A stretch of 64,000 nt of DNA, from contig CAWFSA010000004.1 of the NCBI GenBank assembly GCA_963818425.1, positions 188,016 through 252,015 on the forward strand. The letters are read 5' to 3'. Numbering within the stretch: position 1 is the first letter of the stretch; every line of letters begins with the position of its first letter. Of the stretch, positions 1 to 64,000 are shown piece by piece. The notes under the pieces were generated by a model that saw only the letters and a list, made by a program, of their open reading frames with translations, was not told the DNA's origin and searched no databases. Position numbers and translations under genes: made by a program. The DNA comes from an uncultured Methanoregulaceae archaeon (GTDB lineage Archaea > Halobacteriota > Methanomicrobia > Methanomicrobiales > Methanospirillaceae).

Positions 1-95
1 TTAGAAATCAAAAAAAAGTTTTCCCGGTGTGATGCCACGCTCTTCAGATTTTCCGTGCTTTTGCAACTTCCCTGACGGCAAATGCCGGCAGGGCA

Positions 96-977
96 TCAGC
101 GGCCGGTCCGAGTTCCCGGGTCAGGTCCGTCCCGGCAAGTCTCCGTAGAAAAGAGCGGGGCACCGATACCGGCAACAATGACCTCCTTTGCATTGGATGA
201 CTGTACGACTTTTTGAACATGGCTGCAGATCATGTCGCGCTGGACAGCCCAGAACTGTTCTGCGATCTGCTCTGCCCCTTCAGTCCCGATCTCGTCAAGG
301 TCTGCACAGACCACGCGGGAAATCCTGCGCAGCGAGGCCTCACGGGTCTTCTCTTTCCTGTCGGGAGTGTCGCAGGTGTAGAGTGCGGGATTGATGTGCC
401 CAAGGATAAGGTGGACATCAGCGCTCGTGGCAAAATACTCAGTGCTTACGGGAGTAGGTACTCCTGCAAGGTCAACGGTGCGGAGGAGCGTCGGAACGCT
501 GGTGCGGAGCATGCCGGTATAGAGGAGGTATCCTGCCTGCAGCCGTTTCGTATCGGTCAGCCCCTTCAGGCTGTCGAAGCGGTTGAGCGGGATGATATCT
601 GCAGTCGTGCTGCCGATATCGAGGAGGACGGCATCCGGGTGCCGGGTGCGGAGATAATCAGCGGATGCAAGCCAGTTGGCTGCGGCAAGCTGGGGTACCG
701 CATGATCATGGAACCGGGCATCCGTACCGTAAAACCGGGCGCCGGGAAATACCTTCCGGACCGCATCGACAATAAATGAGATTCCCTGGAGCTTGTTCTC
801 GAAACAATCGGCAAGTTCCCCGCTCATCACAACTGCCGCAGGCTCGCTGGCGCTTTGTACATACTGCCGGAGCAGTCCGGTGATCGGGGACTGCTCCCAG
901 AGCGGGCAGTAGTGGATATGGACGCCGGCATTATCGACAACCTTGAGGTTTGCCCCCCCGACATCGATCCCAATCAT
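96..977 (-). CDS. Hydantoinase/oxoprolinase-fold protein of the H4MPT-linked C1-transfer pathway family (MfnF-like candidate)
   Basis: 293-aa ORF with an N-terminal MIGIDVGGANLK motif, the ASKHA/hydantoinase-A type. Its start shares ATGA at 974-977 with the stop of the upstream ATP-grasp gene, which is an operon-like arrangement. Confidence 0.5.
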   Translation of the reverse strand: MIGIDVGGANLKVVDNAGVHIHYCPLWEQSPITGLLRQYVQSASEPAAVVMSGELADCFENKLQGISFIVDAVRKVFPGARFYGTDARFHDHAVPQLAAANWLASADYLRTRHPDAVLLDIGSTTADIIPLNRFDSLKGLTDTKRLQAGYLLYTGMLRTSVPTLLRTVDLAGVPTPVSTEYFATSADVHLILGHINPALYTCDTPDRKEKTREASLRRISRVVCADLDEIGTEGAEQIAEQFWAVQRDMICSHVQKVVQSSNAKEVIVAGIGAPLFSTETCRDGPDPGTRTGR

Positions 978-1883
978 AGTTTTGTGACCGTCCCGTTCGT
1001 GTCAAACCGGACCCTGCCCTGAAGATGGACCGCGGCCGGGCCGTCACCTTTCGAAGCTTCGATAAGGAGGTCGGCAATCTCCTCCTCCATGCAGGCAGCA
1101 ATGCCGACAAGGCTGGTCGTTATCCGCGGGTTGACATCGACAACATACACCTTGTCCGCCACAACAACATCTACGCCACAGTACCCCTGGCAGCCGAGTA
1201 CTTCAGTCACCTTTACCGCGGTCCTGATGATCTCTTCCTCGCGATCCGGATGCACCGGGGTCTCACCGCCAAGGTAATGGAACGCCCCGTCATTGTCTGT
1301 CTCAATCTGTTGCCGGTTCACGGCAAGAACGAGCGGGGGATTCCCCTTGAAGTAAAGGCACGCATCCCCGATGATCCGGTTGGGGATGATACTGACGGAA
1401 AAGTTTTCGCCCTCGATAAACCGCTCGGCAAACTCATCCTTCCCCGGTCCGCTTTCCGAGAGCCGGACACCCTGCGCACCGCACCCCTTGACCGGCTTGA
1501 TCACCCGTTTTCCGGGCCCGGATTCCCCCGGCACGGGAATACCGTGCTGCCCGAGGATCTTCTGGGTCTGGACCTTGTTTGCGCAGAGCGCCACGCTCAT
1601 GAAGCCGCAGCCAAGGTTGTGCGTGTGCTGCTCAAGGATCATGGTGAATTTCGAGAGCAGGTGGTCGGGGGCGATCACGAGGCCCATGTCGCACTGCGGG
1701 AGCGAGCCGTTCGATCTCGGCAGCAAAATCGCCTTCATCGGGAAGAACAACATCATAGCCGCATCGCTGGAAACTTGCCTTGAGCACATCGAGCATCGCC
1801 CTGCCCTCGCGGGCAAGCGCCGGGTCGTGCGCGGTCGTATATTCTGCGAGCAGGACTTTCATCTGGTACCCGTATGCTGCCAT
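974..1883 (-). CDS. ATP-grasp ligase (MfnD-like tyramine-glutamate ligase candidate), with an apparent frameshift
   Basis: The pre-ATP-grasp N-terminus (MKVLLAEYTTAHDPAL...DFAAEIERL) lies in the 1632..1883 frame. The ATP-grasp body (CDMGLVIAPDH...HGIPVP...) lies in the 974..1816 frame. The frame change falls at about 1693-1708. Confidence 0.45.
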
Positions 1884-1937
1884 GGAAAATTACCCTATCC
1901 GATCGGTGATTTATTGGGGGAACGGGTGTAATAGCAT

Positions 1938-2723
1938 GTGAATATGCGACCTTCGATCCTGCTGACTAATGATGACGGCGTGAGCTCCATAGGGCTCTGG
2001 GCCGCCTATGAAGCGCTGAAACCTATTGCGGACGTAACGGTTGTTGCTCCCGCCACCCAGCAGAGCGCGGTCGGGAGGTCCATCTCCATCTTCGAGCCCC
2101 TCCGGGCCACTCAGGTCGTGATGAACGGCGAGAATGCCTGGGCTGTTGCAGGAAAACCCACGGATGCTGTGATCATCGGGCTGTATGCCCTGAAGCTCGC
2201 ACCCACGATGGTCGTGAGCGGGATCAATATCGGGGAGAACCTCTCGACTGAGTCCATCATGACCTCCGGCACGGTCGGGGCAGCGCTCGAAGCCTCTAAC
2301 CAGGGGACAAAGGGGATCGCCTTCTCCCTGCAGGTCGAGGACCAGGGAGACAAGTTCGATGACCCCCGGTATCATGCCCAGAATTTCGATGCGGCAAAGA
2401 AGGTTGTGCGGGATGTGGTGGAGCGCGTCCTTCTTCACGGGTTCTGCCCGGATACCGATGTCATCAACGTCAATATCCCTTCACAGATAACAGGAGGGTA
2501 CGAAGTAACCCGCCTCGCCCACAAACTCTTCCATACCGGCGTTGAGAAACGTCTTGACCCCCGGGGACGTCCCTATTTCTGGATTAACGGGCCGCTCGTC
2601 GAGGATGCAGAGGAAGGCACTGATGTCCATGCTATCCGGAAAGGCAACGTTTCTATCACACCGATCACGCTGGACTGCACATCGTACAAAGCCTGCCAGG
2701 CCACAAGGAAGATCTTTTCATAA
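1938..2723 (+). CDS. surE: 5'/3'-nucleotidase SurE
   Basis: 261 aa with the SurE N-terminal signature ILLTNDDGVSS.G and GINIGENL. Confidence 0.85.
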   Translation: MNMRPSILLTNDDGVSSIGLWAAYEALKPIADVTVVAPATQQSAVGRSISIFEPLRATQVVMNGENAWAVAGKPTDAVIIGLYALKLAPTMVVSGINIGENLSTESIMTSGTVGAALEASNQGTKGIAFSLQVEDQGDKFDDPRYHAQNFDAAKKVVRDVVERVLLHGFCPDTDVINVNIPSQITGGYEVTRLAHKLFHTGVEKRLDPRGRPYFWINGPLVEDAEEGTDVHAIRKGNVSITPITLDCTSYKACQATRKIFS

Positions 2724-4673: not shown

Positions 4674-6588
4674 TTATTCATCAAGCGTCGAAATGTCACC
4701 GGGGTCCATGCCCATCTCTTTTGCTTTCAGCACCCGCCTCATGATCTTGCCGCTGCGGGTCTTTGGCAGTGTGGCTACAAACTCAATTTCTGACGGCATT
4801 GCAATAGGCCCGAGGGTGATCCGCACATGGTACAGGAGCTCGTTTTTCAGCTTATCGGTTGCCATGTGGCCGACACGGAGGATAACAAACGCCTTGATGA
4901 CGTTTCCTTTCATCGCATCCGGTTTACCGATGACCGCAGCTTCAGCAACAGCCTTGTGCGACACCAGCGCGCTTTCCACCTCAGCAGTGCCGATGTTATG
5001 GCCGGCAACAACGATGAGATCATCAGACCGTCCCAGCACCATGATGTACCCCTCCTTGTTCTTCACGGCAAGATCTCCGACAGCGTACCAGCCGGGTATC
5101 GTATTCCAGTATTTCCGGTACCGCTCGTCATCATTATAGACGGTGCGCAGCATCGATGGCCAGGGTTCACGGATTGCCAGGAAGCCCCCGGTACCGGGCG
5201 CCACGGATTTCCCATTCTTGTCTACCACATCGGCAACAACGCCGGGAATACCCTTGCCCGGCAAAACCCGGGTACATCCGCTCCCCGATCATGGTCGTAA
5301 CCATATGCATACCGGTCTCGGTCTGCCACCAGGTATCAACGATCGGGCACCGGTTCTTTCCTATCACGCGGTAATACCACTCAAACGCTTCCGGGTTCAG
5401 TGGCTCGCCGACCGATCCGAGGATGCGCAGGGTACTGAGGTTATATTTATCCGGCCATTGTTCGCCGACTTTCATGAACATGCGGATCGCGGTCGGGGCG
5501 GTGTAAAGGATCGTGACCCCGAACTCTTCAACCATCTTCCAGTACACACCCGGGTCCGGGTAGTCCGGCGGACTTTCCGTGATGATGATCGTTGCACCCA
5601 GTGCAAGCGGACCATAAACAACGTACGAATGCCCGGTAATCCAGCCGGGGTCTGCAGTGCACCAATAGACGTCGTTGTCCTTGATATCAAACACCATTTT
5701 AGTGGTATAATACGTACCGACCATGTACCCGCCACAGGTGTGGACAATCCCCTTGGGGGCACCGGTGGAACCGCTCGTGTACAGGATAAAAAGCGGGTCT
5801 TCGGCATCCATGATCTCGGGTTCGCAATCCGGTTCTGCGTCCTTAATCATGTCATGGAAATCTACCTCCATTTCCTTATGGATCTCGACCGGCTGGTCGC
5901 GTTCCCTTCGTAAGACAACGATATGTTCCACGCTCGGGGCATTGATGATCGCTTCCTCAATGATATGCTTGAGCGGGATGGACTTGCCGCGCCGGTACGT
6001 GACGTCTGCCGTGATCACAACCTTTGCCCCGGCACCCGTGATGCGGCTGTTAAGTGCTGATGCACCGAAACCGCCGAACACGACACTATGGACTGCTCCA
6101 ATCCGGGCGCACGCGAGCATCGAGATGATCTGCTCCGGGACCATCGGCATATAGATACAGACCCGGTCTCCCTTCTCAACACCCAGTTTTTTCAGGCCGT
6201 TGGCTACCCGCATGACTTCACGCAGGAGCTGACGATAGGTATAGATCCGCTCGTTGTCATCCTCGCCTTTCCCGCTGTGTTCTTCGCCTTTCCAGATCAG
6301 AGCCACTTTATTCCGGCGGGAATTCTGCACATGGCGATCAAGGCAGTTGCAGGTAATGTTCATCTTACCATCAACAAACCAGCGTGCGTACGGGTAATTC
6401 CATTCCCTCACTTTCGCGTATGGCGAGAACCAGTGCAGTTCCTTGGCAATCCGGTCCCAGAACGCATCAGGATTATTCAGGAATTCCTCATACGCCTTCT
6501 GGTAGTTGCCTATCCAGCTGTTCTGCTGGTAGGTGGGATCGGGCGTGTAATACTTTTCGGTAAGTCTGACGTTAAAATTTTCAGCCAT
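4674..6588 (-). CDS. acs: Acetyl-CoA synthetase (AMP-forming), interrupted by one frameshift near 5262-5275
   Basis: The N-terminal 473-aa ORF carries Acs hallmarks (YTSGSTG.PKG, WWQTETG). The C-terminal 196-aa ORF has the Acs C-terminus (…[16 protein letters not shown]…[10 protein letters not shown]). The two frames join at tttgccgggcaaggg. Confidence 0.8.
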
Positions 6589-10523: not shown

Positions 10524-11670
10524 TCAGTGCAACAGGGCGCCATGCGCCCTCGAATTTTGTCCGCACAAACGGGATGCCCGTTCGAAATCTTCCGGTGAGA
10601 TACGGTACTCGGCAAGAAGTGCCTCGGTTGCCTGTTCACCGGGCGTTTTTGCCTCAAATTTCTCTTTTCCCGGCATGAAGAGGGCGATGGTGCACCGTCC
10701 GCGTTTCAGATGGATTTTTACCGCACCGCAATTTGCTCCCGTAACGGTGTCCGTCCGCCCGTTGGCAAACAGGAGCCGGTCGCCCGGATGCGGGTCGTCA
10801 AGGGCATACCCGTCATCAATCCGCCGGCTCAGGGCAAGGTTGAACAGGTACGACTGGAATGCCGAGACGAACATGGAGAGCAGTTTTGGGGGAAGTACCT
10901 GCAGCGCTCCCGCATAGTCGCCCGGACACTCAACGAGATGGTGGAGCATGGCCCGCTCGTAATTCATCTGGACCGGCAGGGCATGCAGCGCGGGTGCGGG
11001 ATCCCGGGTTGCACTGAATGCTGAACGGATCGCCTTGATCTCATCGGGCTCACCGGGGAATTCCATGCCGACATACGTCAGGACCGCCTGCTCATAGTCC
11101 CCTTTCAGGATCCATTCACCAACGCGGTGGGTCACCGGGCGGATGGCTCCGAACCGCTGGAGCCCGAAATAATTGGGCACCCCGGCTGCAACCGTTTCTG
11201 AAATGCTGCGCACCCGGCCGGCAAGATCTGCCGATGTCCGGGTCCCGGATAACAATATCAAAGCGGTTTCCCTGCAGGTCGCCAAGCGACAGTCCCTCGT
11301 TTGACTGGGTGAGGGGTTCAAGCGAGATATCCTTCAGGTACACCGCGGCTACCTGTTCGGGGGTCACATTATAGAGGGAGATCCACTGCGTTGTGATCGC
11401 GTTGCGGTCTTTCGTGCCCGCCCAGCCAATCCGGCGGTGGCTGATGCCGAGCCGTTTTGCGATCTCCTTGACCGCGTGCTGGAGCTCCCAGTTCTTCTTG
11501 GTCAGCCGGCAGATCAGGAAAGGACCGCTCGTCTGTTTTTTTTCAAGCGGGATCTCTTCCACAAGGAAGTCCTCAGCAGTTGACCGGAGCCTGCCTCCAA
11601 TCCCTTCGGCATCGCTCGCATAATAGTCCATTCCCAGGTCGCGTTCAAGCGGGAACGTGCTCTGTTTCAT
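10524..11670 (-). CDS. truD: tRNA pseudouridine(13) synthase TruD, interrupted by a frameshift near 11240-11255
   Basis: The upstream ORF has the catalytic GTKDRNAITTQ motif. The downstream ORF has NYFGLQRFG and the rest of TruD. The join is at ccgggacccgg, a homopolymer context. Confidence 0.7.
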
Positions 11671-13251: not shown

Positions 13252-14254
13252 ATGGAACCTGCGGACCCGGAACCGGCGATCATCCGTGTCGAGAACCTTG
13301 AACACCGCTACGGGGATTTCAAAGCGGTCGACAATATCAGTTTTTCCGTGAGAAAAGGGGAGATCTTCTCGTTCCTCGGGCCGAACGGGGCCGGCAAGAG
13401 CACGGCAATCAATATCCTCATCACCCTGCTCTCGCTGCAGAAAGGCAGGGCAATGGTTGCAGGATATGATGTGACCAGGGATCCCCAGAGCGTCCGGGAA
13501 TCGATCGGCATCGTCTTCCAGGACATCACGCTCGACCGGGATATGACGGTCTGGGAGATCCTCGAATTTCACGGCAGGCTCTACAATATGCCGGTAGATG
13601 AGCGGAGGGCCCGGATCGATGAACTCCTGCAAGCTGGTCCAGCTCGATGCGAAACGGGACGAACGCATAAAAAACCTGAGCGGGGGCATGAAGCGCCGTC
13701 TCGAGATCGCCCGCGGGCTGATGACCCGGCCCAAAGTCCTCTTCCTCGATGAACCCACGATCGGGCTCGACCCGCAGACGCGGATGCGGATGTGGGATTA
13801 CATCAAGGGGGTCAACAATGAAGGGACGACCATCTTCCTCACCACCCATTACATGGACGAGGCCGACCATCTCTCCGACCGGATCAGTATCATCGATCAC
13901 GGGAAGATCGTTATTTCCGGCACCTCATGGGAACTCAAGAACACGCTCGGGCAGGACATCATTTATCTTGAGACCAATGACAATGAGACGGCCACTCGTC
14001 TGCTGAAAGACCTGCCGTCGATCCGGGATATCAAAATAAAAACCAGGGGGTTCCTGCTCATGGTCAACGAGGACGGGACCAAACTGCTGCCGGGGATCAT
14101 CGACACGCTCCGGAATGCCGGCATTGAGATCACGACCATCAACTTAAAAAAACCCTCCATGGATGACGTTTTTGTCTTTTACACGGGAAAAGAGCTCCGC
14201 GATGAAGGAGCAGCACCGGCAAAACCGGTGTTCCTGCGGGCGGGAGGGCGGTAA
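13252..14254 (+). CDS. ABC transporter ATP-binding protein (ABC-2 subfamily), interrupted by a frameshift near 13633-13640
   Basis: Walker A GPNGAGKST lies in the first ORF. The signature LSGGMKRR and Walker B LFLDEPT lie in the second. A single extra base falls in ctcctgCaagctg. Confidence 0.7.
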
Positions 14255-14255: not shown

Positions 14256-15093
14256 ATGGCCTACGGGTTCATGACCATTTACTGGCGGGACATGATCCGT
14301 TTCGTCCGGTTCAAGACGCTGCTCGTCTCCTCGCTCCTCCAGCCGGCGCTCTGGCTCGCCTTCTTCGGCATCGCCATGTCGAGCAACTTCGACCAGCTGA
14401 CCGCCGGGCATGCCAGTACCTGCCGGTGCCCACGTGGTCGGGTACCTCACCTTCATGGGCGCCGGGATCATCGCGATGACGACCCTGTTCACGAGCCTCT
14501 TTGGCGGGATCGTGATCCTGTTCGACAAGAACTGGGGGCTCATGCGGGAGATCCTTGCAAGCCCGATGAACCGGAACCACATCATCTTCGGGATCGGTCT
14601 TTCCGGCGTTACCAAGTCATTCATCCAGGCGATCATCATCATGGGTTTCGGCATCCTGATCGGCACGGCATTCTTTGCCGGGTTTACCCCGCTCCAGACC
14701 GTCATCGGGATTGCCGGGATCCTTGCCTTTGTTGCCATGTTCGCGCTCGGCTTCCTGTTCCTCTCCGCCGCAATCGCTATCTCGATGGAGAGTCCCGAAG
14801 GGCTCCAGGGGGTTATCACGCTCCTGACCATGCCGATCTTCTTTGCCAGCAACGCCCTCTACCCGATCGACACCTTCCCCGAGATCCTGAAGATCATGTC
14901 GGTCTATAACCCGATGACGCTGCTTATCACCGGCATCCGGTACTTTGCGATCGGCCCGGACTTTGTCGCGCTGGGAAAGCATTACGTGTATACGCCGATG
15001 GATATCGCATGGGCATTTGGCGGGCTCGTGATCTTTACCGTGATCATGTTCGCATTTGCTTACTGGCGGTTCAGGAAAGCGGTCGTGACGTGA
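14256..15093 (+). CDS. ABC-2 type transporter permease, interrupted by a frameshift near 14400-14412
   Basis: The N-terminus (MAYGFMTIYWRDMIRF...LWLAFFGIAMSSNFDQL) is in one frame and the 6-TM body in the 14410..15093 frame. The start lies 1 nt after the ATPase stop. Confidence 0.6.
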
Positions 15094-15389: not shown

Positions 15390-16063
15390 ATGGATCTGCC
15401 TTTTTTACTCATCGACATGGTACTGCATTTTGACAAATACCTGCCGGGGATCATCGAAACCTATGGGTTCTGGACCTACGTTATCCTGTTCGTGATCATC
15501 TTCTGCGAGACCGGCCTTGTGGTAGCACCCTACCTTCCCGGAGACTCCCTGCTCTTCGTTGCCGGTGCGCTGGCAGGTGCCGGCCTGCTGAACATCGAGA
15601 TCCTGATCCTCTCGCTGATCGTTGCCGCGGTGCTCGGCGATTCAGCAAACTACTGGATCGGGCATACCACCGGCATGAAAGTCCTTGACTGGAAGTGTAG
15701 TTTTGTCAAAAAGGAGCACCTTGAGCAGACTCATGAATATTTTAAGAAATACGGCGGGTTCACCATCGTCATCGCCCGCTTCGTCCCGTTCATCCGGACG
15801 TTCGCCCCGTTCCTTGCAGGCGTGGGAAAGATGAGTTACCGGTGGTTCCTTCGTACAATATCCTTGGCGGTGCCCTGTGGATCTGTGCGTTCTCCCTTGT
15901 CGGGTACTTCTTCGGAAGCCTCCCCATCATCAAGGAAAATTTCAGCCTGCTCGTGTACGCAATCATCGGGATTTCCCTCCTCGCGGTTGGTTCGGTCGTC
16001 CTGCAGATCATTCGGTCCGCGAATTCCCCGGAGTGCAGGGTGCTCAAGAATCCTCCGGAATAA
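15390..16063 (+). CDS. DedA/SNARE-associated family membrane protein, interrupted by a frameshift near 15845
   Basis: A DedA core (…APYLPGDSLLFVAGALAG…GFTIVIARFVPFIRTFAPFLAGVGKMSYRWFL) continues in the +1 frame with YNILGGALWICAFSLVGYFFG. Confidence 0.65.
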
Positions 16064-25485: not shown

Positions 25486-26176
25486 TTATTGTTCCCGGCC
25501 ATGCGGGAGGGGTAGCTGCCGCATGAAGACGTCCCGGGCGGCCTCACTCCGCCCTTTTTCCATCCACCAGTCGATCAGCGCCCGGGAAATGCTTGAGTTT
25601 TTCCGGGATGCGGGGAAGATGTTACCGGTCGAACCAGAATGCAGATTCAATCCCGGTTGTATCGACAACCAGCTCCCCCGAGTAAAAATATACGGTAAAA
25701 CCTACCCTGTGCGAGTTCGGGAATGGCCAGTGCCCGCTCCCGAAATAACGGATATTCTTTAACCGTAATCCTGGTTTCTTCAGGAGCTCGCGCACAAGGG
25801 CATGCTCAAGGTCCTCACCGGGATCAACAAATCCTGTTACAAGGCCAAACATCGTGGGGGAAAACCCCGGTGAACGGGCGGGCAGGATCCGGTTGTCCCG
25901 CTGCACCGGCACGATGATGGCCGGGGATACCAGGGGGTAGGTGACAAGCCTGCAGGTACCACACTGCTTTGACCGCTCTGTTCTGAACGGAGACATCTCT
26001 TTTCCGCTCCTGCCACAAAACCGGGTCATCCGGTCAAACCCGGTAATCCTGGCCGCAAAGGCTGCAATGGCAGGTTCTTCATCGGGAATACGCGCGACCG
26101 GTCCTGGTGAGCGATTATCATAACGCTGTCGTACTTTTCGTTCAGACTCATGGTTCTCTTTCCGGAAAAAACTCAC
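25486..26176 (-). CDS. NUDIX hydrolase of the NudC type (NAD+/NADH diphosphatase-like), with a frameshift near 25640-25665
   Basis: A zinc ribbon (CGRSGKEM...CGTCRL) precedes the Nudix box GFVDPGEDLEHALVRELLKK.G. The C-terminal tail (SIARALIDWW) is in another frame. Confidence 0.6.
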
Positions 26177-46054: not shown

Positions 46055-47980
46055 ATGAAGAACGGGAAGGTCACGATCGGTCTTATCCAGATGAGCGTGG
46101 AGAATGACCGGGAGGCAATGCTCAAAAAAGCATTAGCGAGGGTGGAAGAGGCAATAAAAGCCGGTGCAGACATCATCTGCCTTCCCGAGCTCTACCGGAC
46201 CCGGTATTTCCCCGGCATATCGGAGGTGATACCTTTTCTCTGGCCGAAACTGTCCCGGGCGAGTCCACCCATTTTTTCTCAAGGATAGCAAAGGAGCACC
46301 AGGTTGTCATCATTATCCCGCTGTACGAGAAGGCTCCTGACGGGAACTTTTACAATTCGGCGGTTGTCATCAACACGGACGGCACAACGAATATTCCTTA
46401 TCACAAAGTCCATATCCCGCAGGACCCGGGTTTTTTTGAGAAAGGATATTTCTATCCCGGGAATTCCTACCAGGTCATTTCCACGCAGTTTTGCCGCATC
46501 GCGGTCCTTATCTGTTACGACCAGTGGTTCCCTGAAGCCGCCCGCTGCGTTGCTCTTGAAGGGGCAGAGATCATCTTCTATCCGACCGCCATAGGGCATC
46601 CGACAGGCGACATTCCCTTTGAAGGAGACTGGCAGGACGCGTGGGAACTGATCCAGCGGAGCCATGCCGTTGCAAACAGTGTCCACGTAGCCGCCGTAAA
46701 CCGTGTCGGGCAGGAAGGGGCCTGCGAATTCTTTGGCGGGTCCTTTGTGTGTGATGCATTCGGAAAAATCCTTGCGCATGCCACTGACCGGGAGGAGATA
46801 CTCCTGAGCACGGTGGATCTCTCCATGAACCACGAGGTCCGGGAATCCTGGGGATTCTTCCGGAACCGCAGGCCGGACACGTACGGGAAAATTTCCGTGC
46901 CGTTCCCCGGAGAATCCGGTGTATTCCCGGCCCTTCGCGAAGGGGATACCCCACAGAACCGGGGGTTCCATATGCCGGCCGAGTGGGAACCCCACGAGGC
47001 TGTCTGGCTCTCGTGGCCCCATAACCAGACGACCTTCCCCCACCTTGCCGAAGTAGAAAATGCCTATTATGCCTTTATCCGGGCAGTCCATGGAACAGAG
47101 CGGATCGAACTTTTCGTCCCTACTGCGGTCATCCACCGTAAAGTGAGGGCACGGCTCCGCGAGATGGACGTGGACCTCTCGCAGCATTATTCTGCATACC
47201 AGTGAATATGCCGATATCTGGATGAGGGATTATGGCCCGACGTTCGTGATCAACCGCGTCCTGAATAAAACTGCCCTGGTCCGGTGGAATTTCAATGCAT
47301 GGGGTAACAAGTACGAGAACCAGATTGCGGACGGGAAGATGCCCCATGTCATGAACAGGCGTCTCTGTCTCCCGATGTTTGAGCCGGGCATTGTGCTGGA
47401 AGGCGGGTCTATCGATGTGAACGGGCGGGGAACGGTACTCACCACCCGTGCCTGCCTCCTCAACCCCAACCGTAACCCGTTGTTATCTGCCGGCCAGATA
47501 GAGGATAAACTTAAAAGTTACCTGGGGGTGGAAAAGGTGATCTGGCTGAACGAAGGGGTTGTCGGCGACGATACCGACGGGCATATCGACGATATTGCCC
47601 GTTTTGTCGGGCCCTCGACGGTCGTATGCGCCTATGAGACCGATAGTTCCGATGCGAATTTCAAAGCCCTGCACGATAATTACGAGATCCTGCAAAGATC
47701 AAGCGACCAGGACGGAACCCCCCTCACGGTCATCAGGCTCCCCATGCCGGCAAAAGTCACCGACAGCGATGAGCGGTACCCGGCGAGTTACACGAACTTC
47801 TATATCGGCAATACGGTAGTGGTCGTTCCCGTCTTTGCCGACCCGCATGACGCGGAAGCGCTGCGTATCATTCAGGAGATATTCCCCGACCGCACGGTTG
47901 TAGGGATCGAAGCCCGGGCACTGGTTGAAGGGTACGGGACATTCCATTGTGCTACCCAGCAGCAGCCGCGAATCGTCTGA
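46055..47980 (+). CDS. Apparent fusion of N-carbamoylputrescine amidase (CN-hydrolase, AguB-like) and agmatine deiminase (AguA-like), with frameshifts near 46225 and 47190
   Basis: The nitrilase-superfamily N-terminus (GLIQMSV...ICLPELYRTRYFP) and body (…IAVLICYDQWFPEAAR…) run in frame into the AguA N-terminus (HMPAEWEPHEAVWLSWPHN) with no stop. The AguA C-terminal part (MRDYGPTFV…GTFHCATQQ) is in the 47222 frame. Confidence 0.6.
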
Positions 47981-49508: not shown

Positions 49509-50391
49509 TCAGACGTTCACATTCAGGAATTCCCGGATAACAAGACCGATCACAAAGGAGATCGCTGCTATGCTGAGGCAGATGCCGGCCATTTCAGCGA
49601 ACCGCCGCCAGAACGGGAGATCTTTTGCTACCGCGATGTAGAACGTGAACACCAGGATGACGAGAACTGCCCCTGCAAGGGTCAGGGCCAGCGCACCGTA
49701 GAGACTCTGGATGAGGAGATAGGGCAGGATCAGCAGTACAACGGTCAGGATATAGGCTGCTCCCGTGTAGAGCGATGCTTTCAGGGGGTCGGTCTGCCGG
49801 CCATCCGACCGCTGCGACAGGTACTCGGAAGCCCCCATGGAGAGTGAAGCAGCAACACCGGTGATAAGGCCGGCCATTGCAATGATCCGGGTATTCTGGA
49901 GGGCAAACGTAAGCCCGGCCAGGGTGCCGGTAAATTCAATAAGTGCGTCATTTAAACCCAGCACCACGGAACCAGTGTATTTCAGCCGTTCTTCATCGAT
50001 GAGCGCGATCAGGTCCTGTTCATGAACCTTCTCGTTTGCCAGCATCTGCGGCATCTCGGGGATGAGGTCGATAAAGGACTGGTCAACGGACTGTGCACGC
50101 CGCTCCATTCCCTCCATGAGTCTGATCGCAAACGTCAGTCCGAAGATGCGGGCAACCAGATAATAGAACCAGATCCGCTTCCGGTCGGGCGCTACTTCCT
50201 GCCCGGTGTAGCGCTTCCAGATCCCGTAGTGCTCGAGTCTCTTGTGCTGCGATCCGGATCAGCACCTCGCGGTTACCGGGTTCCGGCGTTGCTGCAGCGA
50301 TCTTCGTATAGATATGGTGCTCGGTGATCTCGCTTCTCTGGAGGGGCAGGATTTTTGTTACCAGCTGCGCATCAGTGTCCGTTCCCGGCAT
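49509..50391 (-). CDS. VIT1/CCC1-family iron transporter with an N-terminal ferritin-like (rubrerythrin-type) domain, with a frameshift near 50150-50180
   Basis: The 50083..50391 ORF has a ferritin-like EITEHHIYTKIAA...IAAQE segment. The VIT1 membrane domain lies in the 49509..50117 frame, and its extension reads HYGIWKRYTGQEVAPDRKRIWFYYLVARIFG. Confidence 0.6.
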
Positions 50392-51787: not shown

Positions 51788-53036
51788 TCAGGTCTTTTTG
51801 GACCGGCAGAGGAACAGGAGTCCGAGCGCCGCCAGCGGGACTGCCAGCGGCAGGGGTGTTTCGGGGGTTTCGCTCGCGGTCGGCCGGGGGGTTGGAATGG
51901 TCGTTATCCTGGTAGTAACCTTCCGGGTCGTTGTTGCAGGAAGGCGCGTCGTTACCGTTTCCACGGGCGTTCCGGGAGAGGTCCCGGTTATCGATTCTTC
52001 GGGAACTCCCCCGGTGAACGACGACCGCGAGAAGCCGTACACTGCAGTTTCGTCCACGACAACGATCAGCGAACCGTCCCCGGTCATGGCAACGGAATTG
52101 AACTTGATCGCGCTCTGGGCAGTAAAGGTTCCGAGCCGGGTGCCGGCACGGTTATAGACAGAGAGTTTTCTGTCCAGGCTCCCCGCGGCAATGGTATTCC
52201 CGTCATCCGATACTGCAACGCAGGTGATCCAGTTTGCGGCAGTTGCTGTCCAGAGCGATGTGCCGTAATGGTTCAGCACCTGCAGGCTGTTGTCGTCCAT
52301 ACCGATGACGATCAGCGAACCGTCACGGGAATAGGCAAGGGCCTCCGCATTCCCGCCCGCGAACTTTTTATCCCAGATAAGTTTCCCGGTCCCGCTGTAC
52401 ATCCGGACACGGTTGGCGGCCGCGGTCACGAAGGTTGACCCGTCGGGAGCGAGTGCAATAAGATTCTGGGTCGAGTTTGTGATCCGACCATTCCGGTATG
52501 AGGGTTAAATTCGACAACTGGACGTTATTGTTCGTGGTGATGAGGACCCGGTCTCCACCAGGCATGATCCTGATATGGTTGACGGCCAGGGTTGAGTTCG
52601 ATGCAATGTCTCCTCCCGATAACCTCATGAGCATTACCTTGCCCCCGCCGGTTGCTGCGATGATGGATGCATCGGGTGTCATCGATAAATCCGTGAGGGT
52701 GATACCCATGGGCTTTTCCCAGATCAGGGTGCCTGCACCGGAGATGAGACGGAGATCCTGGCCCTTGGAAGCGAGAATATAATCCCCGTTATTGCTGATG
52801 GCCAGGGAAGTTGCGGACCAGCCGGCCCAGCGCTTCCTTCCTTCGGGAGTGAGGGAGATCACCAGATCACCTCCCACAAGGATGGTCGATCCATCTGCAG
52901 ATATGACCACGCCTTCCAGCTCGCTGCTCGTGGGGCCGGCTTCCCTCCAGAGCGGGGTTACCGCGCACGATGCCGGCACGACCAGGCAAAGAAGGAGTGC
53001 AACCCCGCAAAGAACCGCAAGACGGTAGTATTTCAT
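51788..53036 (-). CDS. Paralogous secreted beta-propeller repeat protein, with a frameshift near 52430-52520
   Basis: A signal peptide plus propeller lies in 52368..53036. The remaining propeller and the C-terminus (...ETPETPLPLAVPLAALGLLFLCRSKKT) lie in 51788..52429. Confidence 0.55.
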
Positions 53037-53257: not shown

Positions 53258-55105
53258 TTATTGTTTCCTGCGCCCGCATGCAAGGAAAATCCCAAAAATG
53301 GCAAAAGCCACGGTGACAGGGAATATGGTCAGGGAAGCCTTTGTTGTTACCGGCAGCCCGGTAAGCCCGAGTGCAACCGGCGTGCTCCGGCCACCGATAA
53401 CGGTAACGGTCTGGGAAGCGTCGGTATATCCTGCCTGCCGGGCAGTCACGACATGCGAACCGGCCGGAATATCTGAAAGCGTAACCGGTGTAATTCCCCG
53501 GAAGGTATTATCAAGGAACAACTCGGCACCGGCCGGCGTTGAAACGATCATGATCTGTCCGGTCGTATCCGGTGTTGGTGATGGTCCGTCGGGTGTGAGC
53601 TCGGCGTTCACGGTCGTGACCTGCCCGCCTTTGACGAACACGGTCTGGGTATAGTCACGGTAATCCGTCATCCGTATAAGGATTGTATGGTATCCCGGCA
53701 GGATGCTCGTGAGATCGAAATAACCCCCCTGCGGGATCTGTCCCATGTAGTTCCCGTCAAGGGAGAGGGATGACCCTGCAGGAGTTGATCCCACTTCGAT
53801 GGACCCCACGGTCATCTGCTGGGGAGTAAACGTGTACGACGAGCGGGGTCTGCTGTCCCGATACTATCGTGACAGGAGAGAAGTATTCATCATAACCGGC
53901 CTTGTGGAGCCGGAGGAGGTGCGACCCGGAGGCAAGGTTGGTGACCACATACGGACTTTCGGCAATATAGTTCCCGTCCAGATAGATATCCGCCCCCTGA
54001 GGCAAGGTGAGCGATATTGAGTGAACCGGTCTGGGGATACGGGGTATCGGGAACAAGATATGCATTCACGGTAAAGGTTTCACCTGCCGTTACGTACGCT
54101 GACGTCCCGTATGGCTGGTAGCCGCTCATGGTGATCTGGAGGTAATGGCTGGTGCCCGAACGTACGGATGTGAAGGTTGCCGGCGTATACTGCCAGCTGC
54201 CGCCGTCAAGGGTCACCACGGCTCCGGAGGGATGGGAGATAACCTGTATGTTCCCAGATGCGGGCGTTGGTTCCGGGTTCAGGGTTGCATACAGGTTCAC
54301 GGTCCCGCCTTTTGCCGGCCATGAGGTCACGGAGCCGGTGAAGAGGCTGTAGCCGGGCTTCTGGACGGTAAACGTCCGGAACGGCGTACTGGTAGTCCCA
54401 ACCTCGGTATCGCAGGACCCCCCGGTGATCGTGCATCCCAGGGAGAGATCGTCAAAGGATACCGTGGCGCCATTTACATTGCAGTTCACCCGGATCCAGC
54501 CCTTGTCACAGCCGATACACGGGGGTGAGGGGCTGGATGTCGGCACTTCGGTTGCGCGGGTTGTAATTCTGGTCGTCGGGACGGTTGTAACCGGTACCGG
54601 GGTCAGCGTTACATCGACGGCCCCCTGCTCACCGGCATGGAGTTCTTTTTCGGTCTGGTAAATTTCATAACCTGCCATGGTGATCCGTACAGCGTGGGTG
54701 CCGCTTCCCAGTTCCCTGCCGGTGACGGGGGTTATCCCTGCCGTACTCCCGTCGATCGAGACCTCTGCACCGGAAGGCGTTGAAAGGATGGTCAGCCACC
54801 CGACCTGCGGTCCCGGGGGATTCCGTGATCGTGACCGTTTTTTCCGTTGGCATTGTCACCGGTTTCTCCGGAGTCTCGGTGACGATATGCAGGCTTGTCG
54901 GAGGGACGATGGTCTCCTTGGTTGGTTCTTTTGTAGGTTCAAGGGTTACAATGCGGGTGATTTTCGTGGTCGGTTCCGGAACGGGTTCAAGGGTTACTCC
55001 CCTGATGATTTCCTGGGTCACATCCGGTCCTGTTTCGGCTGCCGCTGCGGGCAGAGCCGGCATGACCAGAAGGAGGAAGCAGATAAGTACTACCGTGGGT
55101 TTCAT
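53258..55105 (-). CDS. PEGA-domain surface protein with a signal peptide and C-terminal TM anchor, interrupted by at least 3 frameshifts (about 54815, 54025, 53820)
   Basis: A signal peptide (MKPTVVLICFLLLVMPALPAAAA) and a T/P/E-rich linker precede at least six PEGA repeats (e.g. AGYDEYFSPVTIVSGQQTPLVVHVY, AGYTDASQTVTVIGGRSTPVAL). The C-terminus reads ...IFPVTVAFAIFGIFLACGRRKQ. Confidence 0.6.
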
Positions 55106-57860: not shown

Positions 57861-58075
57861 CAGCCACTTCAACCTTTGAGATCTCGCGGTGCAGGGTGGA
57901 TGATTTTTTATGTAACTCCTCGCGCTGGACTTCCAGGACAAGTTCTATTGCTTCTTTGATATTGGCGAGGGCTTCCTCCCCGGGTCTCGCCTTGGCTTAT
58001 CGCGCCGGGGATCTCCACGCACTGGACGGTAAAACCGCCTTCGTCCTGGGGCTCGAGTACCACGGTATATTTCAT
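57850..58075 (-). CDS. hicB: HicB-family antitoxin, with a 1-nt frameshift in a CCCGGGG run (about 57975)
   Basis: The sequence MKYTVVLEPQDEGGFTVQCVEIPGAISQGETR continues in the next frame as EEALANIKEAIELVLEVQREELHKK...VADVA and ends 8 nt inside hicA. Confidence 0.55.
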
Positions 58076-58214: not shown

Positions 58215-58529
58215 TCATAGGACCCGGAGCCTCCGGAAGGTCCGCTCGTGCTGGGTGCGGAGCCAGATCTCGCGGGGCATCCATGGCGGGAACGGCAGGG
58301 CACGGACCTCGCGGAGATCGTCTGCCAGCAGGTCTTCGTAAAACGCGTCCGGGTCGATGTGGTTGCGCACCACCCGGACTTTCACGAGCATCGCGTAGCC
58401 GTCCTTGAAGGCGATAAAGTCGTACGCGAGCTCCGGGTTGTCCGTGTTCTCCTGCCACCGGTAGCCCATCTTCTCCGCGAATTTTTTTGCATCGCGGATT
58501 GCTGCCGACGGTTTCTTGCCGCGGGTCAT
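58215..58529 (-). CDS. Small PD-(D/E)xK-like (Hjc/VRR-NUC-like) nuclease-fold protein
   Basis: 104 aa. DFIAFKDGYAMLVKVR resembles the Hjc-type motif D-h-h-A-x-K-x-G-x(3)-h-h-E-V-K. The overlapping longer ORF (58168..58647) is Arg/Pro-rich junk. Confidence 0.35.
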   Translation of the reverse strand: MTRGKKPSAAIRDAKKFAEKMGYRWQENTDNPELAYDFIAFKDGYAMLVKVRVVRNHIDPDAFYEDLLADDLREVRALPFPPWMPREIWLRTQHERTFRRLRVL

Positions 58530-58702: not shown

Positions 58703-59173
58703 CATCCGGGCGCGGTACGGATCCGGTGTTCGGCAGTCACTTCCCCGACCTCGGCAAACATCGCGGCGATCGGGCAGAGCCGGGTCAGCGTCTGTTCGAT
58801 GATCGTTCGAGACCATCGCATCGTCCGCATCGGCCCGGAGCGTGATAGTCAGGTGGACGTGATCGAAGAACGCGGGCATGGTCTTTTTCCGGGTCCCGTG
58901 GATCCCGATCGTCAGCTCTTCCGGGACAATGCCGTTGTCGGAGAGGGCAAGGAGGATCTTCACGCCGACGCACCCGCCGAGCGATCCGACCAGGTACTGG
59001 ATGGGATTGGGTACATTCCCGTGCCCGCCCATGCCGACCGGGGCTTCCATCGGGAAGGTAATCGCACCGGATGACGTGCTGGCAGTAAATTCCATGTTCC
59101 CGTTGTAGGTGACGGTCATGTCAACCGGTTTCCACTCCATCCGCGATTTGTCCCAGGGGATCTCTGTGCTCAT
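58703..59173 (-). CDS. OsmC/Ohr-family peroxiredoxin-like protein, with a frameshift near 58790-58800
   Basis: The N-terminal part has NPIQYLVGSLGGCVGVKI. The C-terminus (TIIEQTLTRLCPIAAMFAEVGEVTAEHRI) lies in an adjacent frame and ends at 58703. Confidence 0.6.
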
Positions 59174-61180: not shown

Positions 61181-61238
61181 AAGTGTTGCTATGGCGATTT
61201 GGACTTGAAAATTAAAAAAAATATATATACTGATGTAT

Positions 61239-62420: not shown

Positions 62421-62600
62421 GGAACTCTCCGTATGTTGAGTACTATGTGCCCGTAATATATGATAAAGTTACTAAGGGCAGGAGGATCATCCCGGGGATG
62501 GGTTCATTACCCGGTTCTCCCGTGCAGGAAACCGGAGTATACAACGGATGCATGAAGAGCAGCACTGCCAAAAAACAACAAAAAAACTCTTAAGAAAACG

Positions 62601-62768
62601 TGGGGTTGGTGAGATTTGAACTCACGATCGACGGGTCTCTCCGACATGCATCAGTGCTCCAACGGGTCATCATCTTGTTTTCAGGAGACCCATTGTTCAT
62701 CATCTGCGAGCACAAAGAACGCAAAGACCGCTGGAGCCCGTCGCCATACCGGGCTAGGCCACAACCCC
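62601..62768 (-). tRNA. tRNA-Trp(CCA) with a 94-nt intron after position 37
   Basis: The rc reads GGGGTTG-TG-GCC…GGC-G-ACGGG-CTCCAG[intron]A-CCCGT-CGATC-GTGAG-TTCAAAT-CTCAC-CAACCCC-A. The acceptor, T-arm and anticodon stems all pair. The anticodon is CCA. CCA is not encoded at the 3' end. Confidence 0.75.
62637..62730 (-). ncRNA. Intron-encoded box C/D sRNA guiding 2'-O-methylation of pre-tRNA-Trp positions 34 and 39
   Basis: The intron carries C (AGATGATGA), D' (CTGA), C' (AGATGATGA) and D (CTGA). The guide upstream of D (TTGGAGCA) pairs with GCTCCA of the anticodon loop and places C34 at the 5th position. The guide upstream of D' (GGGTCTC) pairs with GAGACCC across the 3' splice junction and places nt 39 at the 5th position. 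Confidence 0.65.
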
Positions 62769-63091
62769 GTTCTTTAAGTCATCAGGACGGATTTTTTCCT
62801 GACTCAATAAAATCGCAGTGTATAAACTTAAGAGTTGTGCTGCTTGCGGCACCGCCGGAATGTGCCGGGCGGGAGGATGTGCCAACAGGTTATAAACACG
62901 TCCCTGATGGCGCAGATCCGGTTGTCTCTTCCTGAAAATGTGGCGTGGGATATCAGGGTGCACCAGACCGGAAAACCGGACTGCACCACACCACCGGGTT
63001 AAATCACTACCCATATATGATCCGGTTTCCCACCTTTTACCAATGATTGAGGGCAGTTATATATGCGGGACATCAGGGGTTCCCCTGCTGG

Positions 63092-64000
63092 GAATGACTA
63101 TCAGCGAGATGGTCGACAGTATCGCGGCAAAATACCCGGACACCGAGGCTGTCGTATCCGTGCACCAGAACATCCGGTGGACGTACCGGGAATTTGCGGA
63201 GCAGGTGAACCTGGCAGCCCGCGCCCTCATGGGGCTTGGCGTTGAGAAGGGCGACCGTGTCGGTATCTGGGCCATGAATTATGCCGAATGGGTGGTAGTC
63301 CAGTTCGCCACCTCCAAGATCGGCGCAATCATGGTGAACATCAACCCGGCGTACCGCACGTACGAGCTCGAGTACGTGCTCAAGCAGGCCGAGATCTCGA
63401 CCCTGATCGTGCAGGGCCGGTTCAAGACCTCGGACTACGTGGGGATGTTCTACGAGGCCTGCCCCGAGGCGTACGAGGCCAAGCCCGGCAGGATCTCAAG
63501 CGAGAAGTTCCCGTTTTTGAAAAATGCAGTATTCATGGGCGACATCCCGTATAACGGCATGTACACGTGGAAAGACTTCATGAAAAAGGCGGACGAGATG
63601 TCGATGGACGATATCGCCGAGCGGGGCGAAGGACTCTCGTTCGACGACCCGATCAATATCCAGTACACGAGCGGCACCACGGGCTTTCCCAAGGGAGTTG
63701 TCTTAACCCACCACAATGTCCTCAACAACGGTTTCATCATCGGCGAGGGCATGGGATTTACGGAAAAGGACCGGCTCTGCATTCCCGTCCCGTTCTACCA
63801 TTGCTTCGGCATGGTCCTCTCCAACCTTGCCTGCGTCACCCACGGCACGACCATGGTACTGCCCGCCCCGACGTTCGATGCCGAAGAGGTGTTAAAGACC
63901 ATCGAGAAGGAGCGCTGCACGGCTGTCCACGGCGTCCCGACCATGTTCATCGCCGAGCTCACCCACCCCAACTTCTCCAAGTACGACCTTTCGACCCTCC
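63092..64000 (+). CDS. AMP-dependent acyl-CoA synthetase/ligase (FadD-like), N-terminal part; it continues beyond the window
   Basis: Translation from the ATG at 63092 ([21 protein letters not shown]…) stays open to the window end. It contains the AMP-binding signature [18 protein letters not shown]. It is absent from the ORF track only because it has no stop in the window. Confidence 0.8.

What the first reader, a model, noticed from the sequence alone, without database searches (positions are those of the whole stretch)
1..64000. About 29 single-base frameshifts split around 20 otherwise intact genes, suggesting assembly indel errors
Frameshifts interrupt acs, truD, both ABC-2 subunits, dedA, the P-type ATPase, the REC-coiled-coil gene, nudC, the REC-PAS-HK sensor, the MBL gene, the PP2C phosphatase, the geranylgeranyl reductase-family gene, trm5, aguB-aguA, VIT1, the second beta-propeller, the PEGA protein, osmC, hicB and the ATP-grasp gene. 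In every case both halves keep strongly conserved motifs and the join can be placed within 10-20 nt. Many joins sit in homopolymer runs, including GGGGGG at 21641, CCCGGGG in hicB, CCGGGACCCGG in truD and TTT or TTTTT inside the 189-bp repeats. A rate near one shift per 2 kb across essential genes such as acetyl-CoA synthetase and TruD does not fit real pseudogenisation. It is what uncorrected long-read or 454/Ion-type data produce.
Basis: partly seen in the sequence, partly recalled or inferred. Interest (0 to 1): 0.55.

Follow-up and report, generated by a model that had tools for sequence, protein, structure and literature searches.

The report
Frameshift errors in a long-read genome assembly
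This stretch of an uncultured methanogen (Methanoregula) genome carries 36 single-base insertions or deletions that break 22 otherwise healthy genes, and every test I could run says they are mistakes in the deposited assembly rather than real gene loss, so the finding is ordinary but a warning for anyone annotating this genome.

Summary
I find 36 single-base frameshifts, plus one nonsense codon, in 22 of about 60 genes (0.68 per kb of coding sequence). Two more are broken: a hydantoinase-family gene and a small hypothetical gene.

The frameshifts are in the deposited assembly. The truncated products are exact singleton database entries on one NCBI/ENA contig of 347,335 bp. Close Methanoregula relatives (86-97% nucleotide identity, syntenic) have every one of these genes intact.

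Evidence for an artefact:
- After repair the proteins align end to end with orthologues (Acs 98.9%, TruD 97.2%).
- dN/dS downstream of the shifts (0.107) equals that of intact genes (0.106).
- Hits per gene follow gene length.
- Extra bases outnumber missing ones 27:9.
- Indels outnumber nonsense codons 36:1.
- Among 36 comparison contigs, only two Microflora Danica MAG contigs, probably Nanopore-only assemblies, show a similar density.

The sites are no richer in homopolymers than random positions, so 454/Ion chemistry is not supported. The best fit is a noisy, probably low-coverage, long-read consensus. nudC, with four lesions, is the only candidate real pseudogene. Reads were not available, so this is not proven.

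The parts
140..140 (-). +1 (extra base) in hydantoinase/oxoprolinase-family gene (47-977).
   Evidence: L115 is 95.6% nt identical and has a single gap here. DP alignment to the intact 310-aa orthologue gives 94.8% identity.
1694..1701 (-). +1 in ATP-grasp gene = tyramine-L-glutamate ligase MfnD (977-1862).
   Evidence: The repaired 294-aa protein hits intact 295-aa orthologues at 95% identity and 100% coverage. Confirmed by nt gap and DP.
5257..5259 (-). +1 (CC->CCC) in acetyl-CoA synthetase (4677-6588).
   Evidence: Pfam split. L115 gap. Repaired protein is 98.9% identical to the intact 637-aa Acs.
10571..10573 (-). -1 in truD (10402-11670).
   Evidence: L005, L006 and L008 (95-96% nt identity) all show the gap. 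DP.
11232..11233 (-). +1 in truD. The extra base sits between T and G, not in a homopolymer.
   Evidence: Repaired TruD is 423 aa, 96-97% identical to intact 423-aa orthologues.
13630..13632 (+). +1 in ABC transporter ATPase (13252-14254).
   Evidence: ABC_tran profile 2-90 / 91-136 in two frames. tblastn and DP.
14406..14408 (+). +1 (GG->GGG) in ABC-2 permease (14256-15093).
15850..15851 (+). -1 in DedA/VTT-domain gene (15390-16060).
19337..19337 (+). +1 in P-type ATPase (18689-21257).
   Evidence: 11 of 11 covering relatives show it. DP.
19375..19377 (+). -1 in P-type ATPase.
19430..19430 (+). +1 (TT->TTT) in P-type ATPase.
21641..21646 (-). -1 next to a G6 run in the REC-coiled-coil gene (21409-25334).
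23030..23032 (-). +1 (TT->TTT) at a copy boundary of the 189-bp tandem repeat (22845-23970) in the REC-coiled-coil gene.
   Evidence: Alignment of the six repeat copies. TRF.
24223..24223 (-). +1 in REC-coiled-coil gene.
   Evidence: 6 of 6 relatives show it. DP.
24230..24231 (-). +1 in REC-coiled-coil gene, 7-8 nt from the previous one.
25593..25594 (-). +1 in nudC (about 25400-26176).
   Evidence: 5 of 5 relatives show it. DP has identical flanks LPRIPEKLSISRALID. The orthologue has NUDIX, Zn_ribbon_NUD and NUDIX-like domains.
25624..25626 (-). In-frame stop in nudC (GAA->TAA). It is the only nonsense codon found inside a conserved gene.
25755..25757 (-). +1 in nudC.
25781..25785 (-). -1 in nudC. 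It pairs with 25757, leaving about 8 codons out of frame.
26937..26941 (+). -1 in REC-PAS-histidine-kinase gene (26243-28086).
   Evidence: 4 of 4 relatives show it. PAS_4 profile is split across frames.
27164..27168 (+). -1 in REC-PAS-HK gene.
27495..27495 (+). +1 in REC-PAS-HK gene.
   Evidence: 7 of 7 relatives show it. DP.
35778..35791 (-). +1 in metallo-beta-lactamase-fold gene (34342-36130).
   Evidence: The orthologue has a Lactamase_B domain.
36697..36698 (+). +1 in 5TMR-LYT/SpoIIE (PP2C) phosphatase (36535-37948).
41336..41337 (+). +1 in geranylgeranyl-reductase-family flavoprotein (40911-42060).
45660..45661 (+). +1 in trm5/TYW2-type methyltransferase (45018-45917).
   Evidence: The reference is only 62% identical, so the position is approximate.
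45738..45749 (+). -1 in trm5.
46206..46213 (+). -1 (TTTT->TTT) in the N-carbamoylputrescine amidase part of the fused aguB-aguA gene (46049-47980).
47183..47185 (+). +1 in the agmatine deiminase part of aguB-aguA.
   Evidence: PAD_porph profile 1-65 / 65-321 in two frames..
50238..50239 (-). +1 in VIT1-family gene (49509-50391).
   Evidence: 11 of 12 relatives show it. DP.
52481..52482 (-). +1 in the second WD40 beta-propeller gene (51788-53039).
53834..53840 (-). +1 in PEGA-domain gene (53258-55105).
54009..54011 (-). +1 in PEGA-domain gene.
54820..54820 (-). +1 next to a G5 run in the PEGA-domain gene.
   Evidence: 6 of 6 relatives show it. DP.
57978..57984 (-). +1 (GGG->GGGG on the gene strand) in hicB (about 57861-58075). 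hicA follows at 57636-57860.
   Evidence: Three-frame translation reads ...GAISQGETR | EEALANIKEAIELVLE.... No orthologue was available, so this rests on inspection only.
58218..58221 (-). +1 near the 3' end of a conserved hypothetical gene (58148-58529).
   Evidence: 5 of 5 relatives show it. DP flanks RLRVYDVAVGEI are identical.
58804..58811 (-). +1 in OsmC-family gene (58720-59173).

Best explanation
The window is part of a 347-kb contig of an uncultured Methanoregula genome recovered from a metagenome. Its consensus sequence contains residual single-base insertion and deletion errors, about 0.7 per kb of coding sequence. Each error shifts the reading frame, so gene callers split or truncate the gene. 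The organism's real genes are almost certainly intact.

Shown:
- The indels exist and are in the deposited record.
- They are absent from all relatives.
- They behave like a function-blind random process.
- They left no evolutionary trace.
- The same signature occurs in two Microflora Danica MAG contigs from the same family.

Inferred:
- The source assembly is a long-read, most likely Nanopore, consensus of modest coverage.
- The two Microflora Danica comparison contigs are Nanopore-only assemblies.
- The bases are wrong at the read or consensus level.
For: 1. Truncated products (TruD 184 aa, Acs 473 aa, DedA 252, REC-PAS 234, REC-cc 382, PEGA 146, MfnD 260) are exact database entries. Each is a singleton on one NCBI/ENA contig of 347,335 bp. 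The same 90% cluster holds intact 637-aa Acs from JGI, Logan, NCBI and ENA.
2. Syntenic relatives at 86-97% nt identity carry every affected gene intact. L115 aligns to window 10-9980 in one block at 95.6% with only three in-CDS gaps, each a single base.
3. Repaired proteins are colinear and full length: TruD 423/423 aa at 97.2%, Acs 637 aa at 98.9%, MfnD 93.6%, P-type ATPase 90.9%.
4. Pooled dN/dS is 0.106 for intact genes, 0.095 upstream of shifts and 0.107 downstream.
5. 22 genes are hit against 24.7 +/- 2.2 expected if 36 events fall in proportion to gene length. Hit genes are twice as long as unhit ones (p=6e-5). Hits per gene track length. mfnD, a methanofuran biosynthesis gene (its role is textbook knowledge, not tested here), is hit like any other.
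6. There are 27 extra bases against 9 missing (binomial p=0.004) and 36 indels against 1 nonsense codon.
7. Events are mildly clustered: 5 neighbour distances of 100 nt or less against 1.9 expected, P=0.036. Several carry adjacent mismatches.
8. Control on 36 other contigs of 14 kb or more: the window scores 0.44 junctions per kb. This is matched only by L110 (MFD01476.bin.2.27, contig_68060; 0.44) and approached by L101 (MFD01476.bin.2.40; 0.31). Most other contigs score 0. L110 shows the same excess of extra bases outside homopolymers.
9. The Microflora Danica long-read MAGs are Nanopore-only Flye assemblies with one round of Medaka (PMC12313526). Nanopore consensus indels are a documented cause of frameshifted, fragmented gene calls below about 40x coverage (PMC9262707).
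Against: - No reads, coverage or platform metadata could be obtained. The tools withhold the source contig.
- The error profile, an excess of extra bases with no homopolymer enrichment, is not the textbook Nanopore R9 profile of homopolymer deletions.
- The link to a platform rests on contig length and on resemblance to two MFD MAG contigs. That those two contigs belong to the Nanopore-only set is my inference from their names, because 'MFD01476' does not occur in PMC12313526.
- The platforms of the other 34 comparison contigs were not checked one by one. One older JGI contig, L084, also scores 0.30 per kb.
- The nearest references are 95-97% identical, not the same strain, so a very recent real mutation cannot be excluded for any single site.
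- nudC carries four lesions in about 780 nt, including the only nonsense codon. That is more than the random model predicts.
Confidence: 0.93

Rival explanations
1. The frameshifts are real. This Methanoregula lineage is undergoing very recent, genome-wide gene inactivation, for example after a shift to a host-restricted life or in a mutator background.
For: - The indels are in the deposited sequence.
- nudC has four lesions including a nonsense codon.
- No same-strain reference is available to exclude recent events.
- Reduced, pseudogene-rich methanogen endosymbionts of ciliates are known (my own knowledge, not checked here).
Against: - dN/dS is not relaxed downstream of the shifts (0.107 vs 0.106).
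- There are 36 indels against 1 nonsense codon, and extra bases outnumber missing ones 27:9. Real prokaryotic pseudogenes are usually deletion-biased and carry many nonsense mutations (general knowledge).
- Hits are proportional to gene length and include mfnD, acs and trm5.
- The truncated forms are singletons among about 15 billion proteins.
- The same pattern occurs in two unrelated Microflora Danica MAG contigs.
- About 38% of genes broken would leave a free-living methanogen without methanofuran.
Confidence: 0.03
2. The errors come from flow-based chemistry (454 or Ion Torrent), which miscounts homopolymer lengths, as the first reader offered as an alternative.
For: A minority of sites are run-length changes: CC->CCC at 5257, GG->GGG at 14406, TT->TTT at 19430 and 23030, TTTT->TTT at 46206, GGG->GGGG in hicB.
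Against: - Homopolymer context at the 36 sites equals random expectation: mean 2.53 vs 2.53, and runs of 4 or more at 17% vs 15%, P=0.49.
- Many extra bases differ from both neighbours, e.g. 11233, 27495, 47183, 50238 and 52481.
- A 347-kb metagenomic contig is unlikely from 454 or Ion data (inference).
Confidence: 0.03
3. The frames are restored in vivo by programmed ribosomal frameshifting or transcriptional slippage.
For: None specific. A borderline excess of AGAC/GTCT (9 vs 2.0, Bonferroni 0.045) and CGAG near the sites shows some sequence-context bias.
Against: - Both +1 and -1 changes occur.
- There is no shared slippery motif, and only 4 of 36 sites lie near a run of 5 or more.
- None of the shifts is conserved in any orthologue. 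All relatives encode the protein in one frame.
Confidence: 0.005
4. Mixed case: nearly all events are consensus errors, but nudC is a genuine pseudogene in this population.
For: - nudC has three indels plus the only in-frame stop in about 780 nt, against about 0.5 events expected.
- Its repaired product is only 70% identical to the best orthologue.
- A zinc-ribbon cysteine is replaced: GRCGHE -> GRSGKE.
Against: - References for this region are only about 80% nt identical, so the low identity is not unusual.
- Error clusters of similar density occur in the P-type ATPase, with 3 events in 94 nt.
- Flanking residues remain perfectly conserved.
Confidence: 0.2

Closest known systems
Residual consensus indels in long-read (Nanopore) assemblies and MAGs, which cause truncated ORFs. 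This is the problem measured by the IDEEL test and corrected by short-read polishing or tools such as proovframe (PMC9262707).
   Same: - Single-base indels split otherwise conserved genes at roughly one per 1-2 kb.
- Orthologues are full length.
- The contig is long (347 kb).
- Density and signature match two Microflora Danica MAG contigs of the same family.
   Different: - The classic description stresses deletions in homopolymers. Here extra bases dominate 3:1 and homopolymers are not enriched.
- The platform and coverage of the source could not be verified.
Genuine genome decay with mass pseudogenisation (e.g. Mycobacterium leprae, Sodalis, methanogen endosymbionts of ciliates). Named from my own knowledge.
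   Same: A large fraction of genes (about 38%) is interrupted.
   Different: - Most genes carry one clean single-base lesion.
- There are almost no nonsense codons and no large deletions.
- dN/dS is not relaxed.
- Core genes are not spared.
- The bias is toward insertions.
454/Ion Torrent homopolymer miscalls
   Same: They produce single-base frameshifts.
   Different: There is no homopolymer enrichment, and many inserted bases differ from both neighbours.
Programmed frameshifting (prfB, dnaX and IS-element type). Named from my own knowledge.
   Same: The protein is encoded in two frames.
   Different: There is no conserved site or motif, no conservation in orthologues, and the directions are mixed.

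Membership tests
Long-read assembly consensus indel artefact | Single-base indels interrupt genes whose two parts are both homologous to one full-length orthologue. | tested here: met
   Pfam profile coordinates are consecutive across frames. The frameshift-aware alignments are full length.
Long-read assembly consensus indel artefact | The indels are specific to one assembly and absent from independent assemblies of close relatives. | tested here: met
   Truncated products are singletons on one contig. All covering relatives lack each indel, e.g. 11/11, 7/7 and 6/6.
Long-read assembly consensus indel artefact | Placement is blind to function: proportional to sequence length, with no signature of selection. 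| tested here: met
   22 genes hit against 24.7 +/- 2.2 expected. dN/dS downstream 0.107 against 0.106 for intact genes.
Long-read assembly consensus indel artefact | The assembly derives from noisy long reads without accurate polishing. | not testable with these tools
   The source record is withheld. Only the contig length of 347,335 bp is known, plus the resemblance to Microflora Danica MAG contigs L110 and L101.
Long-read assembly consensus indel artefact | Raw reads do not consistently support the assembled indel. | not testable with these tools
   No read data are accessible.
Long-read assembly consensus indel artefact | Errors concentrate in homopolymers (classic R9 Nanopore description). 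| tested here: not met
   Mean longest run is 2.53 vs 2.53 random, and runs of 4 or more occur at 17% vs 15% of sites. Control contig L110 also shows shifts outside long homopolymers, by inspection of the printed contexts.
454/Ion Torrent homopolymer error | Indels are run-length changes in homopolymers, increasingly so with run length. | tested here: not met
   Non-homopolymer insertions at 11233, 27495, 47183, 50238 and 52481.
Genuine pseudogenes / genome decay | Relaxed constraint (dN/dS rising toward 1) in inactivated genes, especially downstream of the lesion. | tested here: not met
Genuine pseudogenes / genome decay | A mixed lesion spectrum (nonsense codons, larger deletions, deletion bias) that spares essential genes. 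| tested here: not met
   36 indels against 1 nonsense codon, and 27 extra against 9 missing bases. mfnD, acs and trm5 are hit.
Programmed frameshift / transcriptional slippage | A conserved slippery motif at the site and conservation of the two-frame arrangement in orthologues. | tested here: not met
   Orthologues are single-frame. There is no shared motif and only borderline 4-mer biases.

The most novel reading that the evidence does not exclude
The indels are real, and this Methanoregula population is caught in the first moments of genome-wide gene inactivation. About 38% of genes would be frameshifted, including methanofuran biosynthesis (mfnD). That could follow a switch to a dependent or endosymbiotic life or a mutator event, before any secondary decay has accumulated.
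Probability: 0.03. Interest if true: 0.65.

Novelty: not a real feature. Interest (0 to 1): 0.07.

Why it matters
This matters as a data-quality flag, not as biology.

About 38% of genes in this window are miscalled as fragments in the public record, and by extrapolation a similar fraction across the MAG. The fragments have already entered protein databases as singleton clusters.

Consequences:
- Metabolic reconstruction from this genome will be distorted, with apparent loss of acs, mfnD, truD, trm5 and polyamine synthesis.
- Pseudogene counts, completeness estimates and orphan-gene statistics will also be affected.

The practical lesson is that homopolymer-aware correction would not fix this assembly, because most errors lie outside homopolymers. 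Read-based or reference-based frameshift correction is needed.

Tried and rejected
- A self-trained codon-usage HMM segmented the window into frames. It could not by itself tell frameshifts from ordinary gene boundaries, and antisense frames scored well. I used it only to choose fragments.
- Attempts to fetch the source contig failed. Exact look-ups of window proteins and of P0121 returned nothing or only other contigs. The genome-contig scan returned relatives only, at 91% or less. Platform and coverage therefore stay unknown.
- Pfam gave no hit for several fragments (14148-14906, 21513-23141, 58218-32, 1635-1889). These were resolved with orthologues instead.
- Junctions found with stop-to-stop reference ORFs include false positives. 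They come from upstream non-coding extensions or antisense ORFs (8801, 13192, 30980, 31081, 37948, 40279, 40841, 44906, 55861, 59219, 63030). I excluded them as intergenic.
- In the control, the apparent frameshifts in L107 and L099 turned out to be reciprocal effects of using the error-rich L110 and L101 as references.
- I considered that the indels were spiked artificially into the window. This is rejected because the truncated ORFs are in the public protein collection.
- A k-mer search for an error motif, such as a methylation site, gave only borderline signals: AGAC/GTCT 9 vs 2.0 (Bonferroni 0.045), CGAG 10 vs 3.0, AGCT 5 vs 0.7.

Full report
**What the window is.** The window has 54% G+C. 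ARAGORN finds no tRNA. Its proteins place it in Methanoregula. A hand-repaired TruD hits intact 423-aa TruD proteins of Methanoregula MAGs at 96% identity and full coverage. The window also encodes a Fae-Hps fusion. Intact proteins of the window are exact entries in the public protein collection. Each is seen on an NCBI/ENA contig of 347,335 bp. The tools would not return that contig.

**Checking the observation.** I cut the window into stop-to-stop ORF fragments chosen with a self-trained codon model. I scanned them against Pfam.
- Neighbouring fragments on one strand but in different frames match consecutive parts of the same profile. Examples are TruD 2-139 / 140-366 / 365-412, ABC_tran 2-90 / 91-136, E1-E2_ATPase 7-135 / 133-180, PAD_porph 1-65 / 65-321 and AMP-binding followed by AMP-binding_C.
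- I then fetched syntenic contigs of relatives. L001-L004 are 86% nt identical. L005-L012 are 92-98%. L007 and L013-L116 complete the set, including L115 at 95.6% over window 10-9980.
- In these contigs every affected gene is one intact ORF. Their proteins map onto the window in two to four frames.
- A frameshift-aware protein-to-DNA dynamic programme that I wrote places each shift. It shows conserved, often identical, residues on both sides.
- Nucleotide alignments show that all relatives covering a site agree on the gap, e.g. 11/11, 7/7 and 6/6.
- hicB rests on inspection only.
- The shift inside the 189-bp repeat was found by aligning the six copies.

The total is 36 single-base events in 22 of about 60 genes, or 0.68 per kb of CDS. 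The additions are a hydantoinase-family gene (position 140), a hypothetical gene (58220), and extra events in the P-type ATPase (3), nudC (3) and others. The ATP-grasp gene is tyramine-L-glutamate ligase (MfnD). aguB-aguA is one fused ORF in relatives.

**Is it more than chance?** I ran the same junction test on 36 other Methanoregulaceae contigs of at least 14 kb. Most gave zero. The window gave 0.44 per kb.

**Are the shifts in the public record or introduced later?** They are in the record. The N-terminal truncated products are exact entries in the protein collection: TruD 184 aa, Acs 473, DedA 252, REC-PAS 234, REC-cc 382 and PEGA 146. Each is a singleton on the 347,335-bp contig. The window's own 260-aa MfnD fragment is there too.

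**Artefact or biology?** Eight lines of evidence point to an artefact.
1. Repaired proteins are full length and as similar to orthologues as intact neighbours are: Acs 98.9% over 637 aa, TruD 97.2% over 423 aa.
2. Pooled dN/dS is 0.106 for intact genes, 0.095 upstream of shifts and 0.107 downstream. Sequence that would be untranslated is still under full purifying selection.
3. The number of genes hit (22) matches the 24.7 +/- 2.2 expected when 36 events are dropped in proportion to gene length. Hit genes are twice as long as unhit genes (p=6e-5). mfnD, a methanofuran biosynthesis gene, is hit like any other.
4. Extra bases outnumber missing bases 27:9 (p=0.004). This is opposite to the deletion bias generally seen in real prokaryotic mutations (general knowledge).
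5. Only one nonsense codon occurs against 36 indels.
6. Events cluster mildly. There are three within 94 nt in the P-type ATPase and two 7-8 nt apart in the REC gene. Five neighbour gaps are 100 nt or less against 1.9 expected (P=0.036). Several have adjacent mismatches, as in a locally noisy consensus.
7. In the control, the only contigs with a comparable density are L110 (MFD01476.bin.2.27, contig_68060) and L101 (MFD01476.bin.2.40). L110 shows the same excess of extra bases, at sites that by inspection lie outside long homopolymers. The Microflora Danica long-read MAGs are Nanopore-only Flye assemblies polished once with Medaka (PMC12313526). I infer that L110 and L101 belong to that set from their names and contig naming. 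The sample name itself does not occur in that paper.
8. Consensus indels that fragment gene calls are a documented property of such assemblies below about 40x coverage (PMC9262707).

- The sites are not enriched in homopolymers. The mean longest run at the sites is 2.53, against 2.53 at random positions. Runs of 4 or more occur at 17% of sites against 15% (P=0.49).
- In truD the extra base lies between T and G, a few bases outside the CCGGGACCCGG motif.
- The 454/Ion alternative is therefore not supported.
- A weak sequence-context bias exists: AGAC/GTCT 9 vs 2.0 and CGAG 10 vs 3.0. It might reflect systematic base-calling errors but is only borderline.

**Residual doubt.**
- No reads or metadata were accessible, and no same-strain reference exists. 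An individual site could be real.
- nudC is the outlier. It has three indels and a GAA->TAA stop in about 780 nt, and a zinc-ribbon cysteine is replaced. It may be a true pseudogene or simply the noisiest spot.
- Programmed frameshifting is excluded by mixed directions, lack of a motif and lack of conservation.

**Verdict.** This is a real property of the deposited sequence but not of the organism. It is an ordinary long-read assembly artefact. It is of low scientific interest and of practical importance for annotation.

Noticed in passing
window 62601-62768 (-): A tRNA gene has a 98-nt intron that contains a box C/D sRNA (Rfam sR3, 61.8 bits). The anticodon-loop sequence suggests tRNA-Trp. 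ARAGORN missed it. This is the known archaeal pre-tRNA-Trp arrangement, named from my own knowledge.
   Followed up: partly
window 46049-47980 (+): N-carbamoylputrescine amidase (CN_hydrolase) and agmatine deiminase (PAD_porph) form one fused ORF of about 650 aa in the relatives (L043 666 aa, L044 652 aa stop-to-stop). They are not two genes.
   Followed up: partly
window 22845-23970 (-), within gene 21409-25334: Six tandem copies of a 189-bp (63-codon) unit, 90% alike, lie inside a response-regulator protein of about 1300 aa with a very long coiled coil. Relatives have a comparable but differently repeated region.
   Followed up: partly
window 59200-61240: A low-GC island (42% against 54%) has no counterpart in any fetched relative. 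It holds an orphan 323-aa ORF (60209-61180, no Pfam hit) and a zinc-ribbon/DUF4177 ORF (59487-59843). It is possibly horizontally acquired.
   Followed up: no
window 16050-18680: A 2.6-kb stretch is mostly non-coding and largely absent from relatives. L001 has a glycosyltransferase-like gene at this position instead. The stretch contains a RelE/ParE-like toxin (17037-17321) with an upstream small ORF (17318-17515), and a 25-bp 2.5-copy repeat at 18144-18206.
   Followed up: no
window 25400-26176 (-): nudC carries four lesions: three indels and a GAA->TAA stop at 25624-25626. A zinc-ribbon Cys is replaced by Ser. It is the only gene that looks more damaged than the random-error model predicts.
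   Followed up: partly
window 4048, 6723, 8802 (intergenic): Single-base length differences from the 95-97% identical relatives occur in intergenic tracts. Examples are A8 against A5 at 4048 and A9 against A6 at 6723. They could be natural variation or homopolymer errors and cannot be told apart here.
   Followed up: no
all 36 frameshift sites: There is a borderline excess of the 4-mers AGAC/GTCT (9 sites vs 2.0 expected), CGAG/CTCG (10 vs 3.0) and AGCT (5 vs 0.7) within 5 nt of the sites. This may hint at context-specific, perhaps methylation-linked, base-calling error.
   Followed up: partly
L110 (CAWBMY010000024.1) and L101 (OY970361.1): Two public Methanoregulaceae MAG contigs from Microflora Danica sample MFD01476 show frameshift densities of 0.31-0.44 per kb in conserved genes. 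The problem is therefore not confined to the window's assembly.
   Followed up: partly
window 4677-6588 versus L001 14975-17338: The acs gene is present here and in L115. In the L001-L003 relatives an alpha/beta hydrolase and a UbiA-family gene occupy that position. This is a small synteny difference within the genus.
   Followed up: no
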